The notes beneath the pieces are model-generated. The model saw only the letters and a program-made list of their open reading frames with translations. It made no database searches and was not told the DNA's origin. A stretch of 55,272 nucleotides of DNA from an uncultured Lentisphaerales bacterium (GTDB taxonomy: Bacteria > Verrucomicrobiota > Lentisphaeria > JABSQK01 > UBA12247), in NCBI GenBank assembly GCA_943788985.1, contig CALSSJ010000038.1, positions 1 through 55,272 of the forward strand, given 5' to 3'. The stretch's first letter is position 1. The number at the start of each line of letters is the position of its first letter. The position numbers were made by a program, and so were the translations under genes. This document shows, in pieces, positions 32,201-37,532 of the stretch.

Positions 32201-33837
32201 CCCCCAGCGAAACCATCACCGAAATCCCTGCGGATGTGGCGGGAGGTACACTGGTGCGGATGCCTAAGGCCGGTGGCCCCGTCAGCTTCTCTCTCAACTT
32301 GGCCGCCACCGTGCACATCGCGGCAAGCGCAGCGCCGGACGGCTGCGCCATCACTCCCCACAAGATCCGGACCAGCAGTGGTGCCACTCTCAGTGTATTC
32401 AAGCGCGACGTCCAGCCCGGCAAACTCTCGCTGACGCTCACTGGGCCCCATCAGATCTATGTCGCCAAGACCACCAGCGGAAAGACCACCACCGCCGCCG
32501 TTAAGGCCCTGTTGCCCGAGGCCGACCTCAAGCACGGCGAAGAGATCTTCTTCGGGCGCGGCACCTGCTTTGTGTGCCACAAGGTTCAGGACAGAGGCAT
32601 CGAGATTGGCCCTGGATTGGTCGGCATCTCCCAGCGCCGTGACACCGACTACATCATTAAGTCGATTCTCGAGCCGGATGTCTACATCGTCGAGGGCTAT
32701 CAGCAGACCAGCTTGAAGCTCAAGGACGGCCGTGAACTGTTTGGCATGATCCAGGAAGAAACGGCCCTGTCGATCAAGCTGGCGCTGCTGACCGGAGAAC
32801 TGGTCAGTGTCGAGGTGGCGCAGATTGCCAAGCGCGACGACGCCAAGAATTCCGGAATGCCCAGCAGCTTCATTCACACCCTCAGTTCGCAAGACGTCGC
32901 CGACATTACCGCTTGGATCATGCAGCTCGGCAACACCCCAAAAGCCTCGGGCGCCCCGGGCAGTCTCAGCGTCGATCACGACGAAGAAGCCAAGGCCGTC
33001 GCCATCTTGATCGACGGCCAACTCTTTACCGAGTATCGCTATGGTAATAAGGGCAAGCCCATTCTCTATCCGGTGATTGGCCCGCACGGCATTGCGATGA
33101 CTCGCCACCACCCGATGAAGAAGGGCGTGGCCGGCGAAGCCTTGGACCATCCGCATCATCAGTCCATCCACTACAATCACCCCGTCAACGGCCACGACTT
33201 CTGGCACGGCAGGCGAGGCGCCTACATTCGCAACGACGCCATCAACTCCGTGAGCGCGACCGCCGCTGAAGCCGTCATCATCAGCGACAACAGCTGGATT
33301 GCAGGCAGTGGTGAGCGCATTCTCACGGATACCACCGAGATTCGTGCCGGCATCACCGACGGCGGCCGCTACATCGACTACCAGATCACCGTAAAAGCGA
33401 CGGACGGGAACATTCGCTTCGAAGAAACCAAGGAAGGCACCATGTCCATACGCACGCATCCGGCGCTGCGCCTGAAGGGCACCGTCGCCAAAGGCCAAGC
33501 CATCAATAGCGAGGGCGTCACCGGCAAAGCCATCTGGGGCAAACAAGCCAAGTGGGTCGACTACTGGGGCCCCATTGAGGGCAAGAACGTCGGCATCGCC
33601 ATCTTCGATCACCCGGCCAACCCGCGTCACCCCACCACCTGGCATGCGCGCGACTACGGCCTCATCGCCGCCAATCCGTTCGGCAAGCGATTCTTCAAGG
33701 CCGGGCAAGGCGCCATGACCATCAAGAGCGGTGACACCGCCACATTCCGCTATCGCTTCTACTTCCACGCTGGGAGCCACGAGCAAGCCGATATCCCAGC
33801 TAAGTACCAGGCGTGGTCTGCTGCCACGGAACTCTAG
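29245..33837 (+). CDS. PVC-type heme-binding CxxCH dehydrogenase-like protein (propeller, HEAT, FN3-like, cytochrome c, PmoA/DUF6807-like domains)
   Basis: FAKEP, DDDGDGVAE, WGPDGWLY, GMRNPW, FRPTDIEIGPDGALY; HEAT repeats; YTTDGSVPT; CFVCH at 32566-32580; KPILYPVIGP...DHPHH...WHARDYGL. Confidence 0.88.
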   Translation: MHRIWIILLLGITLAETTRAQVDTDALPTVEAGFAINFFAKEPHIINPSALCFDRQGRLFVGAGPQYRNPKPDSPTDYIKILIDDDGDGVAETVKTFADGFNSIQSLAWRGEELWVANSPDLTVLRDTDGDDVADEYQLIYTGLNNLRHGLHGFNWGPDGWLYMAIGNTWVKPNAPKPFRDIQRLKSSDKTKYPLTKVYSRNTYPKSYHSLKRKEKEGGIFRCRPGGQDLELFARGMRNPWDMCMDDGFNWLATDNDPGPQGDRIFMPIRHGHYSMRHPWKFDWNGKHPAVAPVADLFPTVSGSGTGVAFYNSANFPEAYRGTYLIADWTQSCIYWYQPKWEGAHQVPAAKKKQLVSSSGGFKDLQWQGGEGRALFRPTDIEIGPDGALYIAGWGSVYGTEYVPKSEWTAEENAKYQGRVFRFRHTDPLVARNTWDTPKRRKPLADWSYDELLADLGAQLPVWRVDAQDELIRRGAPVREQLLTSLKSDRISEMQATWAIWAVGRIEQTANSDHATLKALAADAALNQRIQAARILGAHEVASAESLLIRLLDDAEPRVRHAAIEALGALGWSEQTRPAILAALADETDRVCAYSAWQIMRRQLAVADRRALLDDPRPGIRRMAALGLAEEGNKDIIAMIPAYLAGDRVLPSTDAKLSAKVSLNAKDLAFREKTTVTVSSTMPRYQPATLLRVDLGCADDPVHEPGWIPWELSRRSQVLKATKTFDFEAAQNAKTTVTLETTTPGQARNYGLRKVTNAAKLPLANVWRDQVFFNNNTNGSMTLTFNDLSAGNYRFTGYGFANNLTAGSKFNDEGNARVVINEQQTAQTATFVSGHGSKLIREAITAAELHTHARTSFDFTVAEDTKPVRISFQDLVSGDTFGLNGFELAAFNLQPSVGPPVHYTTDGSVPTAQSPQVTGPLSIRKTAVVKAAAFVDNARVSEIAELQLRLISDSEWKDRLFVTDLSNGAEVLVDGAQRGVRAYADTPSETITEIPADVAGGTLVRMPKAGGPVSFSLNLAATVHIAASAAPDGCAITPHKIRTSSGATLSVFKRDVQPGKLSLTLTGPHQIYVAKTTSGKTTTAAVKALLPEADLKHGEEIFFGRGTCFVCHKVQDRGIEIGPGLVGISQRRDTDYIIKSILEPDVYIVEGYQQTSLKLKDGRELFGMIQEETALSIKLALLTGELVSVEVAQIAKRDDAKNSGMPSSFIHTLSSQDVADITAWIMQLGNTPKASGAPGSLSVDHDEEAKAVAILIDGQLFTEYRYGNKGKPILYPVIGPHGIAMTRHHPMKKGVAGEALDHPHHQSIHYNHPVNGHDFWHGRRGAYIRNDAINSVSATAAEAVIISDNSWIAGSGERILTDTTEIRAGITDGGRYIDYQITVKATDGNIRFEETKEGTMSIRTHPALRLKGTVAKGQAINSEGVTGKAIWGKQAKWVDYWGPIEGKNVGIAIFDHPANPRHPTTWHARDYGLIAANPFGKRFFKAGQGAMTIKSGDTATFRYRFYFHAGSHEQADIPAKYQAWSAATEL

Positions 33838-33889
33838 TTTATTCCCCTATTTTAACGCCAGCCATCCCCGAAAAAAGGACCAGACTCCC

Positions 33890-34252
33890 ATGAGCACCCC
33901 AACCGATACCCCCGGTCTGTACGTACGTCACGAATCCGATGCGGCTACCGAGCGCAGTTCCTGTGGCTGGCGCTACCGCCTGATCAGTGAAGGTGACGAA
34001 CAGGTCCAGGCATGGGCGCACTCCGTCGACATCGACGACAGTAGAGCGCACTACCACAAGCTAGGCACCGAACTCTATTACGTCGTCGAAGGTGAAGGCA
34101 TCCTGATCCTCGATGGCGTCGAGCATCCGATCAAACAGGGCTCCTTCGCCCATATCCCACCGGGAGTCGTCCATAATTCCAAAGGTCGCATGAAAGTCCT
34201 CGTCGTCGGCATCCCGACCATTGATGACGACGATCTCTATTATCCAGAGTAA
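33890..34252 (+). CDS. Cupin domain protein
   Basis: HYHKLGTELYYVVEGEG and IPPGVVH cupin motifs. Confidence 0.85.
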   Translation: MSTPTDTPGLYVRHESDAATERSSCGWRYRLISEGDEQVQAWAHSVDIDDSRAHYHKLGTELYYVVEGEGILILDGVEHPIKQGSFAHIPPGVVHNSKGRMKVLVVGIPTIDDDDLYYPE

Positions 34253-34278
34253 AAACTGACCAGCATCTTGGTCCCGCT

Positions 34279-34537
34279 GCGGGAAGTAATTTGACTCTTG
34301 ACTCCCGACTCTTGACTCTTGCGCTGACTCTCTGACCGGATGACTCACTGACAGTCAAGGCGTCAAAGAGTCACCTCGTCAATCCAAGAGTCAAAAGTCA
34401 GGAGTCAAGAGTCCCACAAAGACCCCAGCGTAGTCTCGCGGCCGAGGCCGCGGGAAGCAATTTGACTCTTGACTCCCGACTCTTGACTCTTGCGCTGACT
34501 CTCTGACCAGATTACTCCCTGACGGTAAAGGCGTCAA
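34279..34537. repeat. Left array: ~1.5 copies of the 171-bp palindromic unit
   Basis: Unit landmarks at 34344 and 34515; same sequence as the right array. Confidence 0.92.
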
Positions 34538-34574
34538 TCCTATCATCTGATGCGAGGCGTGATATCGTGCCCTC

Positions 34575-35297
34575 ATGCCTACCATTTATCACAACAGCGG
34601 CGGCTACCGAAAGCTCCACTCTTTCAGCTTTGCCAGCATCGTGCACCTTGGCACGATTGACTTTTGCAAGCGCTTCATCCACTGGAAACAGGACCCGCTG
34701 GGCAAGACAGTCGGACAGATGGTGGGGGCCTCTCGCTCGGGTAAGCAGAACATCATCGAGGGTTCAGAACGCGCTAAGACATCGGCAGAAACTGAGATCA
34801 AGCTAACCGACGTCGCCAAAGCCAGCTTCGGGGAACTTCAGGGCGACTTCGAAGACTTCCTTCTCTCTCATGGTCAGATCCCTTGGAGCATTAAGGAGCC
34901 GAGACACCAAGCCATCATGGCCGTGATGCTGGATCAGTTCGTCTACACAGATGACGTGCTCCATGACTACTGGACGTTCCTGCTGGGCCAGAAGGCGAAG
35001 TTCGATCCCTGGCTAAACGACGACGACCCGGTGACGGTTGCAAACGCGATGATTCTTTTGCTCTGGCGAACAACAGGCCTCCTGACCCGCCAGCTCGCTG
35101 AATTGGAACGCGCGTTTCTTGAACGAGGTGGCATCCGCGAGAAAATGACCAGCGCCCGCCAGCAAGCCCGTGCAGTGCCAGAGGGTCCTTTATGCCCGCA
35201 GTGCGAGGCACCGATGCGCAAGCGCAACAGCTCCCGCGGTCCGTTCTGGGGCTGCGGCACCTACCCAGCCTGCAAGGGTACCAGAGCTGTTGAGTAG
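34575..35297 (+). CDS. Four helix bundle protein with suffix domain (TIGR02436 + TIGR04258 type) and topoisomerase-type C4 zinc finger
   Basis: GGYRKL, QMVGASRSGKQNIIEGS, EIKLTDVAKASFGELQGDFEDFL, FLERGGIREKM and CPQC...GPFWGCGTYPACKG. Confidence 0.88.
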   Translation: MPTIYHNSGGYRKLHSFSFASIVHLGTIDFCKRFIHWKQDPLGKTVGQMVGASRSGKQNIIEGSERAKTSAETEIKLTDVAKASFGELQGDFEDFLLSHGQIPWSIKEPRHQAIMAVMLDQFVYTDDVLHDYWTFLLGQKAKFDPWLNDDDPVTVANAMILLLWRTTGLLTRQLAELERAFLERGGIREKMTSARQQARAVPEGPLCPQCEAPMRKRNSSRGPFWGCGTYPACKGTRAVE

Positions 35298-35341
35298 GCG
35301 ACATGCCCCGACCGAGCCCGAGGTGTGAGAAGGACTCTTGC

Positions 35342-36100
35342 CTCCCTGACAGTCAAGGCGTCAAAGAGTCACCTCGTCACAATCCAAGAGTCAAAAGTCA
35401 AGCGTCAAGAGTCCCACAAAGCCCCCAGCGTAGTCTCGCGGCTCCGGCCGCGGGAAGCAATCTGACTCTTGACTCCCGACTCTTGACTCTTGCGCTGACT
35501 CTCTGACCAGATGACTCCCTGACAGTCAAGGCGTCAAAGAGTCACCTCGTCAATCCAAGAGTCAAAAGTCAAGCGTCAAGAGTCCCACAAAGCCCCCAGC
35601 GTAGTCTCGCGGCCGAGGCCGCGGGAAGCAATTTGACTCTTGACTCCCGACTCTTGACTCTTGCGCTGACTCTCTGACCAGATGACTCCCTGACAGTCAA
35701 GGCGTCAAAGAGTCACCTCGTCAATCCAAGAGTCAAAAGTCAAGCGTCAAGAGTCCCACAAAGCCCCCGGCGTAGTCTCGCGGCCCCGGCCGCGGGAAGC
35801 AATTTGACTCTTGACTCCCGACTCTTGACTCTTGCGCTGACTCTCTGACCAGATGACTGCCTGACAGTCAAGGCGTCAAAGAGTCACCTCGTCAATCCGA
35901 GGGTCAAAAGTCAAGCGTCAAGAGTCCCACAAAGCCCCCAGCGTAGTCCTCGCGGCCCCGGCCGCGGGAAGCAATTTTGACTCTTGACTCCCGACTCTTG
36001 ACTCTTGCGCTGACTCTCTGACCGGATGACTCCCTGACAGTCAAGGCGTCAACGAGTCACTGCGTCAATCCAAGAGTCAAAAGTCAGAAGTCAAGAGTCC
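35342..36100. repeat. Right array: four full plus one partial copy of the 171-173-bp palindromic unit
   Basis: Unit starts at 35342, 35515, 35686, 35857 and 36030; each full unit has (CAAGAGT)4-like / (ACTCTTG)4-like arms around a CGCGGC-N4-GCCGCG hairpin. Confidence 0.95.
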
Positions 36101-36783
36101 CGAACCACAGTTGCGAGCCACTGGCGAGCATGGCTGATGGCGAGTTCGAGGGCTTGGCCTTGGGCCAGGTGAGCGGCGATGGCTGCCGAAAGCAAGCAGC
36201 CGCTGCCGTGTATCGCTTCCACCGGCCAGGTCAGGGGCGGGAAGATTGAGCGCTCTCCGCCACGATACAGGATGTCTTCCCCTGGCCGGTCTTCACGATG
36301 ACCACCGGTGAGGAGCGTAGCACAGGAGAAGGAGGCGGCAGCCCCCAGGATCTGAGCTTCGGCCAGGTTGGGGGTGATCAGGGTTGCGGAGTCCGCAAGT
36401 GCGCGGTAGGCGTCGAGCCCCGAGGCTTCGCAGAGGGCGGGGCCGGCGCTAGCGCTCAACACCGGATCGATTACGAAGGGAATGTCGGGAAAGAGCTGCT
36501 CGCGGGCGGAAAGGACTGCTCGAACGATGGCCTCGGTGCCCAACATCCCAGTTTTGACAGCGGCCACAGGGTAGGCGTCGCAAGCGGCCTGGATTTGCTG
36601 GCTGACAAGGTCTGCCGTCAAGGCGTGTATCGTCCGGACTTCGCAAGGGGTCTGCACGGTGACGGCGGTAAGAGCGGTGGCACCGAAAACGCCGAGGCCA
36701 TGAAAGGCACGCAGGTCTGCCTGAATGCCAGCACCGCCGCAGCTGTCGCTGCCGGCGATGGTGAGTACGACAGGCTGCGTCAT
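36091..36783 (-). CDS. thiD: Hydroxymethylpyrimidine/phosphomethylpyrimidine kinase
   Basis: LTIAGSDSCGGAGIQADL, VKTGML, IDPV, ITPNLAEA and HGSGC. Confidence 0.88.
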   Translation of the reverse strand: MTQPVVLTIAGSDSCGGAGIQADLRAFHGLGVFGATALTAVTVQTPCEVRTIHALTADLVSQQIQAACDAYPVAAVKTGMLGTEAIVRAVLSAREQLFPDIPFVIDPVLSASAGPALCEASGLDAYRALADSATLITPNLAEAQILGAAASFSCATLLTGGHREDRPGEDILYRGGERSIFPPLTWPVEAIHGSGCLLSAAIAAHLAQGQALELAISHARQWLATVVRDS

Positions 36784-37532
36784 CGGACGTTCTCGGGATG
36801 GCTGTAGACGGTGGCACGGTCGTCGCGGCAAAAGCCGATGACGGTAATGCCTAGGCGGGCAGCTGTTTCAATAGCCAGCGTGGTGGGTGCGGAGACCGCA
36901 AGCAACAGGGAAACGCCAAGCCGGTAGACCTTGGTCACAATCTCGTAGGAGACGCGACCACTGACGAGTAGGGCGTCAACCCCCTGCCCTGCTCGGAGCG
37001 CCTGGCCCACGATCTTGTCGACGGCATTGTGGCGGCCGACGTCCTCGGCCAGAAAGGCGATGCGCTCGCCAATCACGGCGGCCGCGGCATGCACCCCGCC
37101 GGTGGCAGCAAACTGGGGTTGCGAACTCCGCAACGCCACGAGCAGCGATGGCACTGCGGACGTCGCAAATTGCGAACTCCGCAACGGCAAAGGCTCGCCT
37201 TCGATCGGCGTAAAGGTGCGCTGTCCGCACAGTCCGCAGGAGCTGTTGATTGCGAGCGTGCGGCGCTCGAGTAGTTCTTTGCAAATGTAGACGTCTGGAA
37301 GCTCAACATGGGCAGTGTGCCCATCCGGAAGGGTAATCTGGCCGAGGCCATCGATCATGGTGGCGACGCCCTCGGTGTGCAGCAGTCCGCGGACCAGATC
37401 TTCGTCCTCGCCGGGAGTGCGCATGGTGACGGCGAACGACTGCTGGTTCAGCAGGATTTGGAGCGGTGCTTCTCGGCCGAGTTGCTCGTCTGATTCGGAC
37501 CACACGCCGGCCTGCCAGCGTCGTGCTTTCAC
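36780..37532 (-). CDS. fdhD: FdhD/NarQ sulfur-transfer accessory protein
   Basis: TMRTPG, SSCGLCG, TGGVHAAA, EDVGRHNAVDK, SGRVSYE and SAPT. Confidence 0.9.
   Translation of the reverse strand: MKARRWQAGVWSESDEQLGREAPLQILLNQQSFAVTMRTPGEDEDLVRGLLHTEGVATMIDGLGQITLPDGHTAHVELPDVYICKELLERRTLAINSSCGLCGQRTFTPIEGEPLPLRSSQFATSAVPSLLVALRSSQPQFAATGGVHAAAAVIGERIAFLAEDVGRHNAVDKIVGQALRAGQGVDALLVSGRVSYEIVTKVYRLGVSLLLAVSAPTTLAIETAARLGITVIGFCRDDRATVYSHPENVR

What the first reader, a model, noticed from the sequence alone, without database searches (positions are those of the whole stretch)
34279..36100. Four-helix-bundle gene embedded in a tandem array of 171-bp heptamer-built palindromes: candidate undescribed mobile or repeat-propagating element
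Seen: a lone four-helix-bundle + C4 zinc-finger gene has ~1.5 copies of a 171-bp unit on its left and ~4.4 on its right, all in the same orientation and nearly identical, between unrelated genes (cupin, thiD). No transposase, recombinase or rRNA is nearby. Known: TIGR02436 proteins have no established function, were first found in 23S rRNA intervening sequences, and share a fold with the nucleic-acid-binding DGR accessory protein Avd. Inference: the layout parallels RAYT/REP (REPtron) loci, with the protein binding or spreading its flanking hairpins. The direct repeats could also excise the gene by recombination.
Basis: partly seen in the sequence, partly recalled or inferred. Interest (0 to 1): 0.88.

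Follow-up and report, generated by a model that had tools for sequence, protein, structure and literature searches.

The report
Helix-bundle gene inside its own palindromes
A small conserved gene of unknown function sits inside a tandem array of mirror-image short-repeat hairpins, and relatives in many bacterial phyla carry matching hairpins at ever-changing chromosomal sites, which points to an undescribed mobile gene-plus-repeat element.

Summary
In detail: a 240-aa TIGR04258 four-helix-bundle/zinc-ribbon gene lies in a 171-bp palindrome array (about 1.5 units left, 4.4 right), flanked by a 23-bp duplication. Contigs of three studies hold the gene and collapsed repeats, so it is not a single-assembly artefact. 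The link is family-wide: GAC...GTC phased repeats flank 96 of 133 homolog loci (control 17 of 334). Repeat period (7, 8 or 9 nt) follows protein clade, upstream and downstream flanks are often direct copies, neighbours differ almost everywhere, and gene-less sister palindromes are scattered through this genome. The fold matches S23p (Xcc0516) and DGR Avd. It is not a REPtron: no transposase domain was found. Arm mismatches show no sense-strand G-U bias (88 vs 88), arguing against a plain mRNA hairpin. Best reading (0.5): a mobile cassette whose ring protein binds its phased arms, probably single-stranded DNA, with host enzymes doing strand transfer; the 171-bp array is a secondary local amplification. 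Movement and binding are inferred, not observed. The scan found this gene-plus-palindrome design before on other DNA; my paper searches found no description.

The parts
34288..34456 (+). Left full repeat unit: 121-nt palindrome (34293-34413; outer 7-nt GAC/GTC arms, inner 8-nt arms) plus about 50-nt GC-rich spacer
34457..34537 (+). Left half unit: left arm, hairpin centre and start of right arm, broken by the gene cassette
34515..34537 (+). Left copy of 23-bp direct duplication (2 mismatches to 35342-35364); because it lies in an array the true duplication may be 23 bp plus whole units
34519..34546 (+). Sigma-70-like promoter candidate spanning the repeat/leader junction (9 of 12 matches; 1 found vs 0.4 expected, so weak)
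34538..34574 (+). Cassette leader; 22 of 33 aligned columns match the leader of the paralog at G000:C10, which starts like the spacer of another palindrome family (family B)
   Evidence: matches counted by eye from the alignment
34575..35297 (+). 240-aa four-helix-bundle protein (S23p/Avd fold, residues about 9-184) with TIGR04258 suffix (153-200) and Top1-type C4 zinc ribbon (206-237); under purifying selection
35298..35341 (+). Cassette trailer with degenerate GAC units
35342..36101 (+). Right array, 4.4 units of 171 bp (part unit 35342-35456; units at 35457, 35628, 35799; last palindrome 35979-36099); begins with the right copy of the 23-bp duplication
36091..36783 (-). Convergent thiD; its last codons and stop codon lie inside the outer repeat arm, and it ends 15-29 residues earlier than 12 of 12 order-level homologs
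33890..34252 (+). Upstream cupin gene (host neighbour, not part of the element)

Best explanation
The gene and its palindromes form a small mobile cassette of the S23p/Avd superfamily: hairpin - gene - hairpin, the two hairpins being direct copies. SHOWN (computed): the family-wide link with phased GAC...GTC arms, clade-specific period, direct-copy flanks, unrelated insertion sites, gene-less sister palindromes, purifying selection, S23p/Avd fold. INFERRED: the protein forms a ring (pentamer by analogy with Xcc0516 and Avd) and binds the 3-5 phased GAC cores of an arm when the palindrome is single-stranded, most likely DNA since both strands are equivalent and a topoisomerase-type zinc ribbon is attached; the bound hairpin becomes a recombination or template-switch site, and host enzymes carry out strand transfer. 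Insertion duplicates target sequence; recombination between the direct copies drops the gene and leaves solo palindromes. At this locus a family-A palindrome landed at the thiD 3' end, was amplified in tandem with its spacer by unequal exchange or slippage, and received a gene cassette that came from a family-B context.
For: Flank enrichment: upstream 89 of 137, downstream 49 of 137, either 96 of 133, both 40 of 133, vs 17 of 334 control windows. Period follows protein clade: 9 changes vs shuffled mean 28.2, 0 of 200; a 44-row clade with 39 period-9 rows spans 14 phylum labels, and genome G087 carries one gene with 8-nt arms and another with 7-nt arms. In 38 of 133 loci the upstream flank matches its own downstream flank best; direct beats inverted 40 to 8. 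Neighbours are heterogeneous, including atp, hsd and cmr operons, with no recurring mobility enzyme among 125 scanned. Homologs in 72 of 151 class genomes, up to 9 matches each, some broken; 0 of 29 other hflX loci carry the gene found after hflX in G154. A strict 8-periodic palindrome pattern occurs in 8 of the 10 genomes with the closest homologs and 1 of the other 141. 25 palindrome stretches of four types in this genome. Median dN/dS 0.11 (130 of 171 pairs). Fold: 2GSC Z 14.7, rmsd 1.4, 112 aligned; 2RLD Z 12.3; Avd 8UB7_B Z 11.3. Self-association model 0.58 vs best control 0.00 (mark reached by 20 of 30 solved homo-pairs and 1 of 23 single chains; four copies and own alignment, runs agree in at least 66% of contacts, pLDDT at least 79; may reflect likeness to solved rings). 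Arm mismatches G.T 88 vs C.A 88 over 59 arm pairs while terminator-like controls give 9 G.T and 0 C.A of 10. Chain length mode is 4 cores (113 of 232).
Against: No movement, excision joint or circle was seen (contigs cannot show it). No catalytic motif or partner enzyme was identified, so the motor is missing. 37 of 133 loci lack a scored GAC/GTC chain (some have phased repeats with other cores, others none), and two 88%-identical genes at different sites in one genus show no obvious arms (L259, L270). Kin share labels and near-duplicates are in the tree, so clustering is not proof of co-evolution; the tree is the quick one. The window's own flank scores as period 7 although its clade is period 8. 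The 10-genome cut-off in the co-occurrence count was set after seeing the data, and in G111 and G121 the only matches are beside the gene (6 of 10 have a match away from a listed homolog). In-register complementarity at variable positions is only slightly above shuffled register (0.66 vs 0.63), so pairing itself is weakly selected. The same palindromes bracket an unrelated ATPase gene (C41), and the atp-operon insertion is inherited vertically in a relative. Mode 4 cores is not 5.
Confidence: 0.5

Rival explanations
1. IVS-like RNA element: the arms pair in the transcript and enclose the gene, RNase III cuts it out, and the Avd-like ring binds the RNA arms, possibly recruiting a host reverse transcriptase for retro-mobility.
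For: Coxiella IVS carries an S23p ORF behind GAC-core heptamers, with the RNase III site at the first repeat (PMC4990558 passages). Avd binds an RNA stem-loop with all five protomers (bioRxiv 10.1101/2023.10.23.563531 passages). Predicted folding closes the gene in a long stem. Some homologs sit between inverted arms only (L053, L063). The genome encodes a group II intron-type RT. Long target duplications can accompany RNA-templated insertion (recalled).
Against: No sense-strand G.U excess: 88 vs 88 against a 9:0 control; the window's palindromes have 5-6 C.A and 1 G.T on the gene strand. Flanks are mostly direct copies of whole hairpins, not inverted arms. No RT among 125 neighbours. Zinc ribbon is of the topoisomerase type.
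Confidence: 0.2
2. Iteron-repressor model: the protein binds the inverted repeat arrays as double-stranded DNA to regulate its own promoter (and neighbours); the cassette travels passively with other mobile DNA, and arrays expand by slippage.
For: Arms are more frequent upstream than downstream (89 vs 49 of 137); a promoter-like site overlaps the repeat junction here; strand-symmetric mismatches and weak in-register pairing fit binding-site arrays.
Against: Does not explain direct-copy flanks including loop or host-gene sequence, gene-less palindromes at many junctions, or single-gene insertions with unrelated neighbours. Periods of 7, 8 and 9 bp would place sites on very different faces of a helix for closely related proteins (inference).
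Confidence: 0.2
3. The palindromes are REPIN/BIME-type elements spread by a RAYT-like transposase encoded elsewhere; the four-helix gene is a hitch-hiker that landed in them.
For: The genome has 10 places matching a Y1_Tnp-like ORF; tandem REPIN clusters with flanking sequence are described (PMC3116915 passages); an AAA_14/DUF4143 gene is bracketed by family-B palindromes while its 85-88% identical homolog has none.
Against: None of the 10 Y1-like places has these palindromes in its printed flanks; the nearest scored palindrome is 1.3 kb away. Repeat period tracks the four-helix clade across phyla. DUF4143 homologs are flanked in only 4 of 26 loci including this genome's, with wider windows.
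Confidence: 0.08
4. The array is an assembly expansion or chance.
For: No contig spans the array, so copy number is unverified; the last units carry single-base insertions.
Against: Units differ at 4-9 sites among the three compared; runs of three studies hold the gene unitig bounded by repeats at chromosomal depth and repeat unitigs at about 2-4 times that depth; similar arrays exist at C10, C39 and C7.
Confidence: 0.02

Closest known systems
S23p-encoding intervening sequences of 23S rRNA (Coxiella burnetii, Leptospira; PF05635/TIGR02436; structure Xcc0516, PDB 2GSC)
   Same: Same fold (Z 14.7); ORF preceded by tandem GAC-core repeats (heptamer in PMC4990558 passages); no known protein function.
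   Different: Not in rRNA; 240 aa with an internal insert, TIGR04258 suffix and zinc ribbon; whole hairpins as direct copies on both sides; periods 7-10; gene-less palindrome families and tandem arrays; no sense-strand pairing bias.
REPtrons / RAYT-REP-REPIN-BIME systems (PMC2817692 abstract; PMC3116915 and PMC3733652 passages)
   Same: One gene flanked by cognate palindromes, apparent co-variation of protein and repeat, presence correlation across genomes, dispersed gene-less copies between genes, tandem clusters that include flanking sequence.
   Different: No Y1/HUH transposase domain; repeats are phased GAC/GTC arrays of 50-130 nt rather than GTAG- or CGTC-tagged 20-40 nt stems; tens rather than hundreds of copies; gene often multi-copy.
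DGR accessory protein Avd (PDB 4DWL, 8UB7)
   Same: Four-helix-bundle fold (Z 10.5-11.3); precedent for a pentamer contacting a stem-loop with all protomers.
   Different: No RT among scanned neighbours; I did not search for TR/VR pairs beyond the repeat scan of 33500-37000; 10-13% identity; N-terminal bundle is near charge-neutral (12 K/R, 11 D/E in residues 1-100).
NCBIfam TIGR04258 'four helix bundle suffix domain-containing protein' with PF01396
   Same: This is the protein family (53 of 53 aligned members match).
   Different: The family entry gives no function and no link to flanking repeats in the description returned.

Membership tests
TIGR04258 four-helix-bundle suffix family | HMM score over cut-off | tested here: met
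   59.8 vs 40 bits
S23p/TIGR02436/PF05635 family | HMM score over cut-off | tested here: not met
   TIGR02436 17 vs 24 bits, E 0.005; 52 of 53 members match at E<=0.01; no PF05635 hit at E<=0.001
S23p/Avd superfamily | Four-helix-bundle fold of Xcc0516/Avd | tested here: met
   AlphaFold2 model pLDDT 89; top three rows 2GSC, 2RLD, 8UB7_B; 2GSC also first in Foldseek (E 0.037) and profile search (E 0.052). Z 11-12 alone is within the range of generic helical bundles
S23p/Avd superfamily | Homopentameric ring | tested here: inconclusive
   Four-copy model supports head-to-tail self-association (0.58 vs 0.00); five copies could not be run; may be from likeness to solved rings
23S rRNA intervening sequence | Located within a 23S rRNA gene | tested here: not met
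   Between cupin and thiD; no rRNA match in 33800-36600
23S rRNA intervening sequence | ORF in the loop of a stem made by flanking inverted sequences | tested here: inconclusive
   Such a stem is predicted but alternative local hairpins exist and no sense-strand bias is seen
23S rRNA intervening sequence | Excision from RNA by RNase III | not testable with these tools
   Only contigs of an RNA run were available
REPtron (RAYT-REP) | Gene encodes an IS200/IS605-type Y1 HUH transposase | tested here: not met
   No Y1_Tnp hit; model is an all-helical bundle plus zinc ribbon; no invariant His or Tyr in the alignment
REPtron (RAYT-REP) | Gene flanked by cognate palindromes that co-vary with it | tested here: met
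REPtron (RAYT-REP) | Presence of the gene correlates with its cognate repeats across genomes | tested here: met
   8 of 10 vs 1 of 141 genomes; cut-off set after the fact, kin not independent
REP superfamilies | Unpaired GTAG or CGTC tag at one end of a 20-40 bp stem, usually over 100 copies | tested here: not met
   Phased GAC/GTC arms, 25 stretches in the genome; definitions
Diversity-generating retroelement | Adjacent reverse transcriptase | tested here: not met
   Both RVT_1 matches lie on other contigs; none among 125 homolog neighbours
Insertion sequence / mobile element in general | Demonstrated excision or new insertion | not testable with these tools
   Indirect only: variable sites, duplications, relics

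The most novel reading that the evidence does not exclude
A new class of bacterial selfish element with no nuclease or transposase of its own: a ring-shaped S23p/Avd-type protein acts as a molecular ruler that reads phased GAC repeats (7, 8 or 9 nt according to clade) on extruded hairpins and drives host enzymes to copy both its gene and gene-less palindromes to new gene junctions, occasionally capturing other genes. rRNA intervening sequences would be the copies that landed in rRNA genes, Avd a domesticated member, and many unexplained 7-9-nt intergenic repeat arrays its footprints.
Probability: 0.33. Interest if true: 0.9.

Novelty: new variant of a known kind. Interest (0 to 1): 0.7.

Why it matters
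S23p/TIGR02436/TIGR04258 proteins are widespread, structurally solved and without a function. The clade-specific period gives a cognate ligand and a built-in specificity control (7 vs 8 vs 9 nt), so the long-open question of what these proteins bind becomes a direct experiment. If the protein also spreads its palindromes, it is a REPtron-like system run by a non-transposase fold, would explain a class of dispersed bacterial repeats that insert into operons and even clip gene ends (thiD here), and would give an origin for the DGR accessory protein Avd.

Tried and rejected
Empty site at cupin-thiD: no same-family genome is held; cupin homologs are at most 40% identical and none of 12 thiD loci had cupin, fdhD or the gene within about 1.5 kb, so untestable. 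Empty site at an atp operon: the only matching relative also has the insertion. Reads: five joints listed, none skipping the gene; the four 'goes back' joints involve records with other letters, and loose ends match other genomic copies (C2, C11, C39), so I do not read them as circles; parts of the gene without RNA cover prove nothing. Rfam: three sub-threshold hairpin hits only. Single-sequence PDB search: nothing relevant. Foldseek: no match at E<=0.001. Phages: no match; plasmids: one full-length match in 72,556 records; viral contigs: one locus, so carriage by phage or plasmid is not supported in these collections. Family search for Y1_Tnp in the genome found none although a divergent ORF scores over cut-off; its family is not linked to these repeats. 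A first crude periodicity score gave the same direction and was replaced. The careful tree did not finish; the quick tree is used. A 7-periodic pattern hit only 2 of 151 genomes, too few to test co-occurrence. Sequence look-up of earlier findings returned nothing. Paper searches for TIGR02436 (0 papers), four-of-five terms on four-helix bundle and palindromes (0), and searches listed no paper describing the gene-palindrome link; the library omits most subscription journals, and no supplements were read.

Full report
Observation. The array and gene are as described. Period 171, 4.4 copies, 95% matches at 35342-36101; one full and one 81-nt part copy at 34288-34537; each unit has a 121-nt imperfect palindrome with folding z-scores of -6.7 and -5.3. 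Left arms are runs of GAC cores, right arms runs of GTC cores; outer parts are 7-periodic, inner parts 8-periodic. The 804-nt insert 34538-35341 (leader, 240-aa ORF, trailer) interrupts a unit just past the hairpin centre and is bounded by a 23-bp duplication with two mismatches. Of 24 runs listed, 20 hold part of the stretch, from 10 studies; I laid 4. Three DNA runs of three studies each give an 845-889-nt gene unitig ending in the repeats at about the depth of the flanks, with repeat unitigs up to 2-4 times deeper. One run may be the source sample, and none spans the array, so unit number is unverified.

Protein. TIGR04258 is over cut-off and a Top1-type zinc ribbon ends the chain; TIGR02436 is below cut-off. 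The model from a 53-row alignment (pLDDT 89) matches Xcc0516 (Z 14.7, rmsd 1.4, 112 aligned), BT_0352 (12.3) and Avd (11.3, 10.5) ahead of or level with generic bundles (pectin methylesterase inhibitor 11.2). A four-copy model of residues 1-200 scores 0.58 against 0.00 for the best of 3 controls, with a head-to-tail interface; this mark was reached by 20 of 30 solved homo-pairs and 1 of 23 single chains, the job differs from the calibration, and it may reflect solved rings. Median dN/dS is 0.11 over 130 of 171 pairs of 19 genes; 41 pairs were saturated. No His or Tyr is invariant.

Own genome. The unit core recurs at six other scored sites plus a fragment, including a 7-copy, 203-bp array without a gene. 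A scan for phased GAC/GTC chains gave 37 stretches; 25 fall into four types (A 8, B 13, C 2, D 2) and 12 were unassigned, mostly weak. A 77% paralog sits in a family-B array, and broken paralogs lie next to other palindromes. The window's leader matches the paralog's leader at 22 of 33 columns, and that leader begins like the family-B spacer, so I infer that the cassette came from a family-B setting into a family-A array. thiD ends inside the last arm and is 15-29 residues shorter than 12 of 12 homologs of 36-49% identity, consistent with insertion at its 3' end. The 171-bp unit was not found in 150 class genomes apart from one 41-nt weak hit.

Homologs. Of 163 loci (80 genome, 80 metagenome, 1 viral, 2 own), 141 had a callable whole gene and 22 were dropped. 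Chains were found upstream in 89 of 137, downstream in 49 of 137, either side in 96 of 133 and both in 40 of 133, against 17 of 334 windows behind other long ORFs of the same loci. Many negatives show phased repeats with other cores, others none. On a quick tree of 138 rows (91 labelled), period needs 9 changes against a shuffled mean of 28.2 (0 of 200); period 8 marks the Lentisphaerota/Kiritimatiellota clade nearest the window, period 7 its basal grade, period 9 a clade covering 14 phylum labels. Kin and near-duplicates inflate this, but G087 holds a gene with 8-nt arms and another with 7-nt arms, so period is not a host trait. In 38 of 133 loci the upstream flank resembles its own downstream flank more than any other locus's, often including the loop; direct beats inverted 40 to 8. 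125 neighbouring ORFs are heterogeneous, with one XerD-like integrase, one transposase domain and several type I restriction genes, but no recurring mobility enzyme. Homologs occur in 72 of 151 class genomes; 16 regions from ten genomes of one genus share flanks in only one pair; 0 of 29 other hflX loci (27 with over 1.4 kb downstream) carry the gene. A strict 8-periodic palindrome occurs in 9 of 151 genomes: 8 of the 10 with the closest homologs and 1 of 141 others, reversed-pattern control 0; I set the cut-off after seeing the lists, and two of the eight have matches only beside the gene.

What the arms are. Across 59 arm pairs, mismatches are G.T 88, C.A 88 and other 242, with 1274 Watson-Crick; sense folds better in 28, antisense in 31. 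Terminator-like hairpins of this genome give 9 G.T, 0 C.A of 10, a small control. Variable positions agree only slightly better in register than shuffled (0.66 vs 0.63 over 54 pairs, p 0.004, rows not independent). So the conserved features are the core, the period and the inverted arrangement, not a tuned mRNA stem. Chains have 3-5 cores in 214 of 232 cases, near the subunit number of the known rings. By analogy with Avd, whose five protomers take flipped-out bases of a stem-loop, and with TRAP (recalled), a ring reading phased triplets on a single strand accommodates 7, 8 or 9 nt more easily than a duplex binder; this is inference.

Mechanism and rivals. I favour a hairpin-gene-hairpin mobile cassette whose protein binds its arms on single-stranded DNA and relies on host enzymes (0.5). 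An IVS-like RNA or retro route (0.2), a dsDNA iteron repressor carried passively (0.2), RAYT-driven repeats with a hitch-hiking gene (0.08) and artefact (0.02) remain. Against RAYT: none of 10 Y1-like places is flanked by these repeats. For some passivity: an unrelated ATPase is bracketed by family B here but its family is flanked in only 4 of 26 loci. Nothing here shows binding or movement directly.

Known systems. Closest are S23p-bearing rRNA intervening sequences, where GAC-core heptamers precede the ORF (PMC4990558, 12 passages seen), and REPtrons (PMC2817692 abstract; PMC3116915 and PMC3733652 passages). It works like a REPtron in layout and co-variation but fails membership on the transposase; it shares fold and repeat core with IVS elements but is not in rRNA. 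PMC10053308 (2 passages) supports PF05635-Avd homology. Searches listed no paper on the gene-palindrome link; supplements were not read and most subscription papers are outside the library.

Earlier scan notes. At least ten notes describe TIGR02436 genes in inverted heptamer arms (8 shown) and two describe this subfamily with phased palindromes; they are not independent support. They led me to the IVS literature; I had seen the clade-linked period. Added here: direct-copy flanks, genome-level co-occurrence, the strand-symmetry test, cassette transfer between repeat families, and thiD clipping.

Verdict. Real, family-wide, apparently undescribed in print; new variant of the S23p/IVS kind, with a one-in-three chance of being a new class of element. 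Interest 0.7.

Noticed in passing
G000:C10:125223-127495: Paralog (77% identity) embedded in a tandem array of a different, mostly 8-periodic palindrome (family B, period about 178 bp).
   Followed up: yes
G000:C39:3879-5218: Seven tandem copies of the same family-A palindrome with a 203-bp period and no gene, starting right after the hrpB stop codon.
   Followed up: partly
G000:C41:4305-6342: AAA_14/DUF4143 ATPase gene bracketed by direct copies of family-B palindromes; its closest homolog (G087) has none.
   Followed up: yes
G000:C11:16579-22682: Two 'inside-out' family-A units (right arm, spacer, left arm) about 4.7 kb apart around two hydrolase-like genes, then a broken nucleotidyltransferase-like gene pair (my reading of the translation; no Pfam hit) ending at a family-B palindrome.
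   Followed up: partly
G000:C15:83450-84080: Classical TIGR02436 gene with an internal stop, flanked by direct copies of a 107-nt palindrome (97 of 107 identical): same hairpin-gene-hairpin layout in the classical family.
   Followed up: partly
G000:C29:46645-47366 and C31:45786-46048: Frameshifted paralog with GGAC/GTCC arms, and a zinc-ribbon-only remnant next to a family-B-like palindrome.
   Followed up: partly
L328 (G043:C22:65990-69620): Three sister palindromes punctuate a type III CRISPR cmr operon at gene junctions, the last directly before a four-helix gene.
   Followed up: partly
L189, L152 and L264: Homologs flanked by direct duplications of 40-80 nt of neighbouring host sequence (upstream gene 3' end in L189 and L264) rather than by hairpins.
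   Followed up: partly
G000:C31:47258-48229 and nine other places: Divergent Y1_Tnp (RAYT-like) family, two copies 97% identical, with their own upstream repeats.
   Followed up: partly
window:7323-7360: Isolated run of 5.3 heptamers with no partner arm or four-helix gene in the ORF list.
   Followed up: no
window-wide: The spaced palindrome TTGCG-N5-CGCAA noted in earlier scan findings occurs 8 times in the window and 594 times in the genome; unrelated to this element.
   Followed up: no
G000:C7:73500-74267 and C41:4100-4580: Near-identical sequence upstream of family-B arrays on two contigs, differing mainly in homopolymer lengths: duplication or assembly overlap.
   Followed up: no
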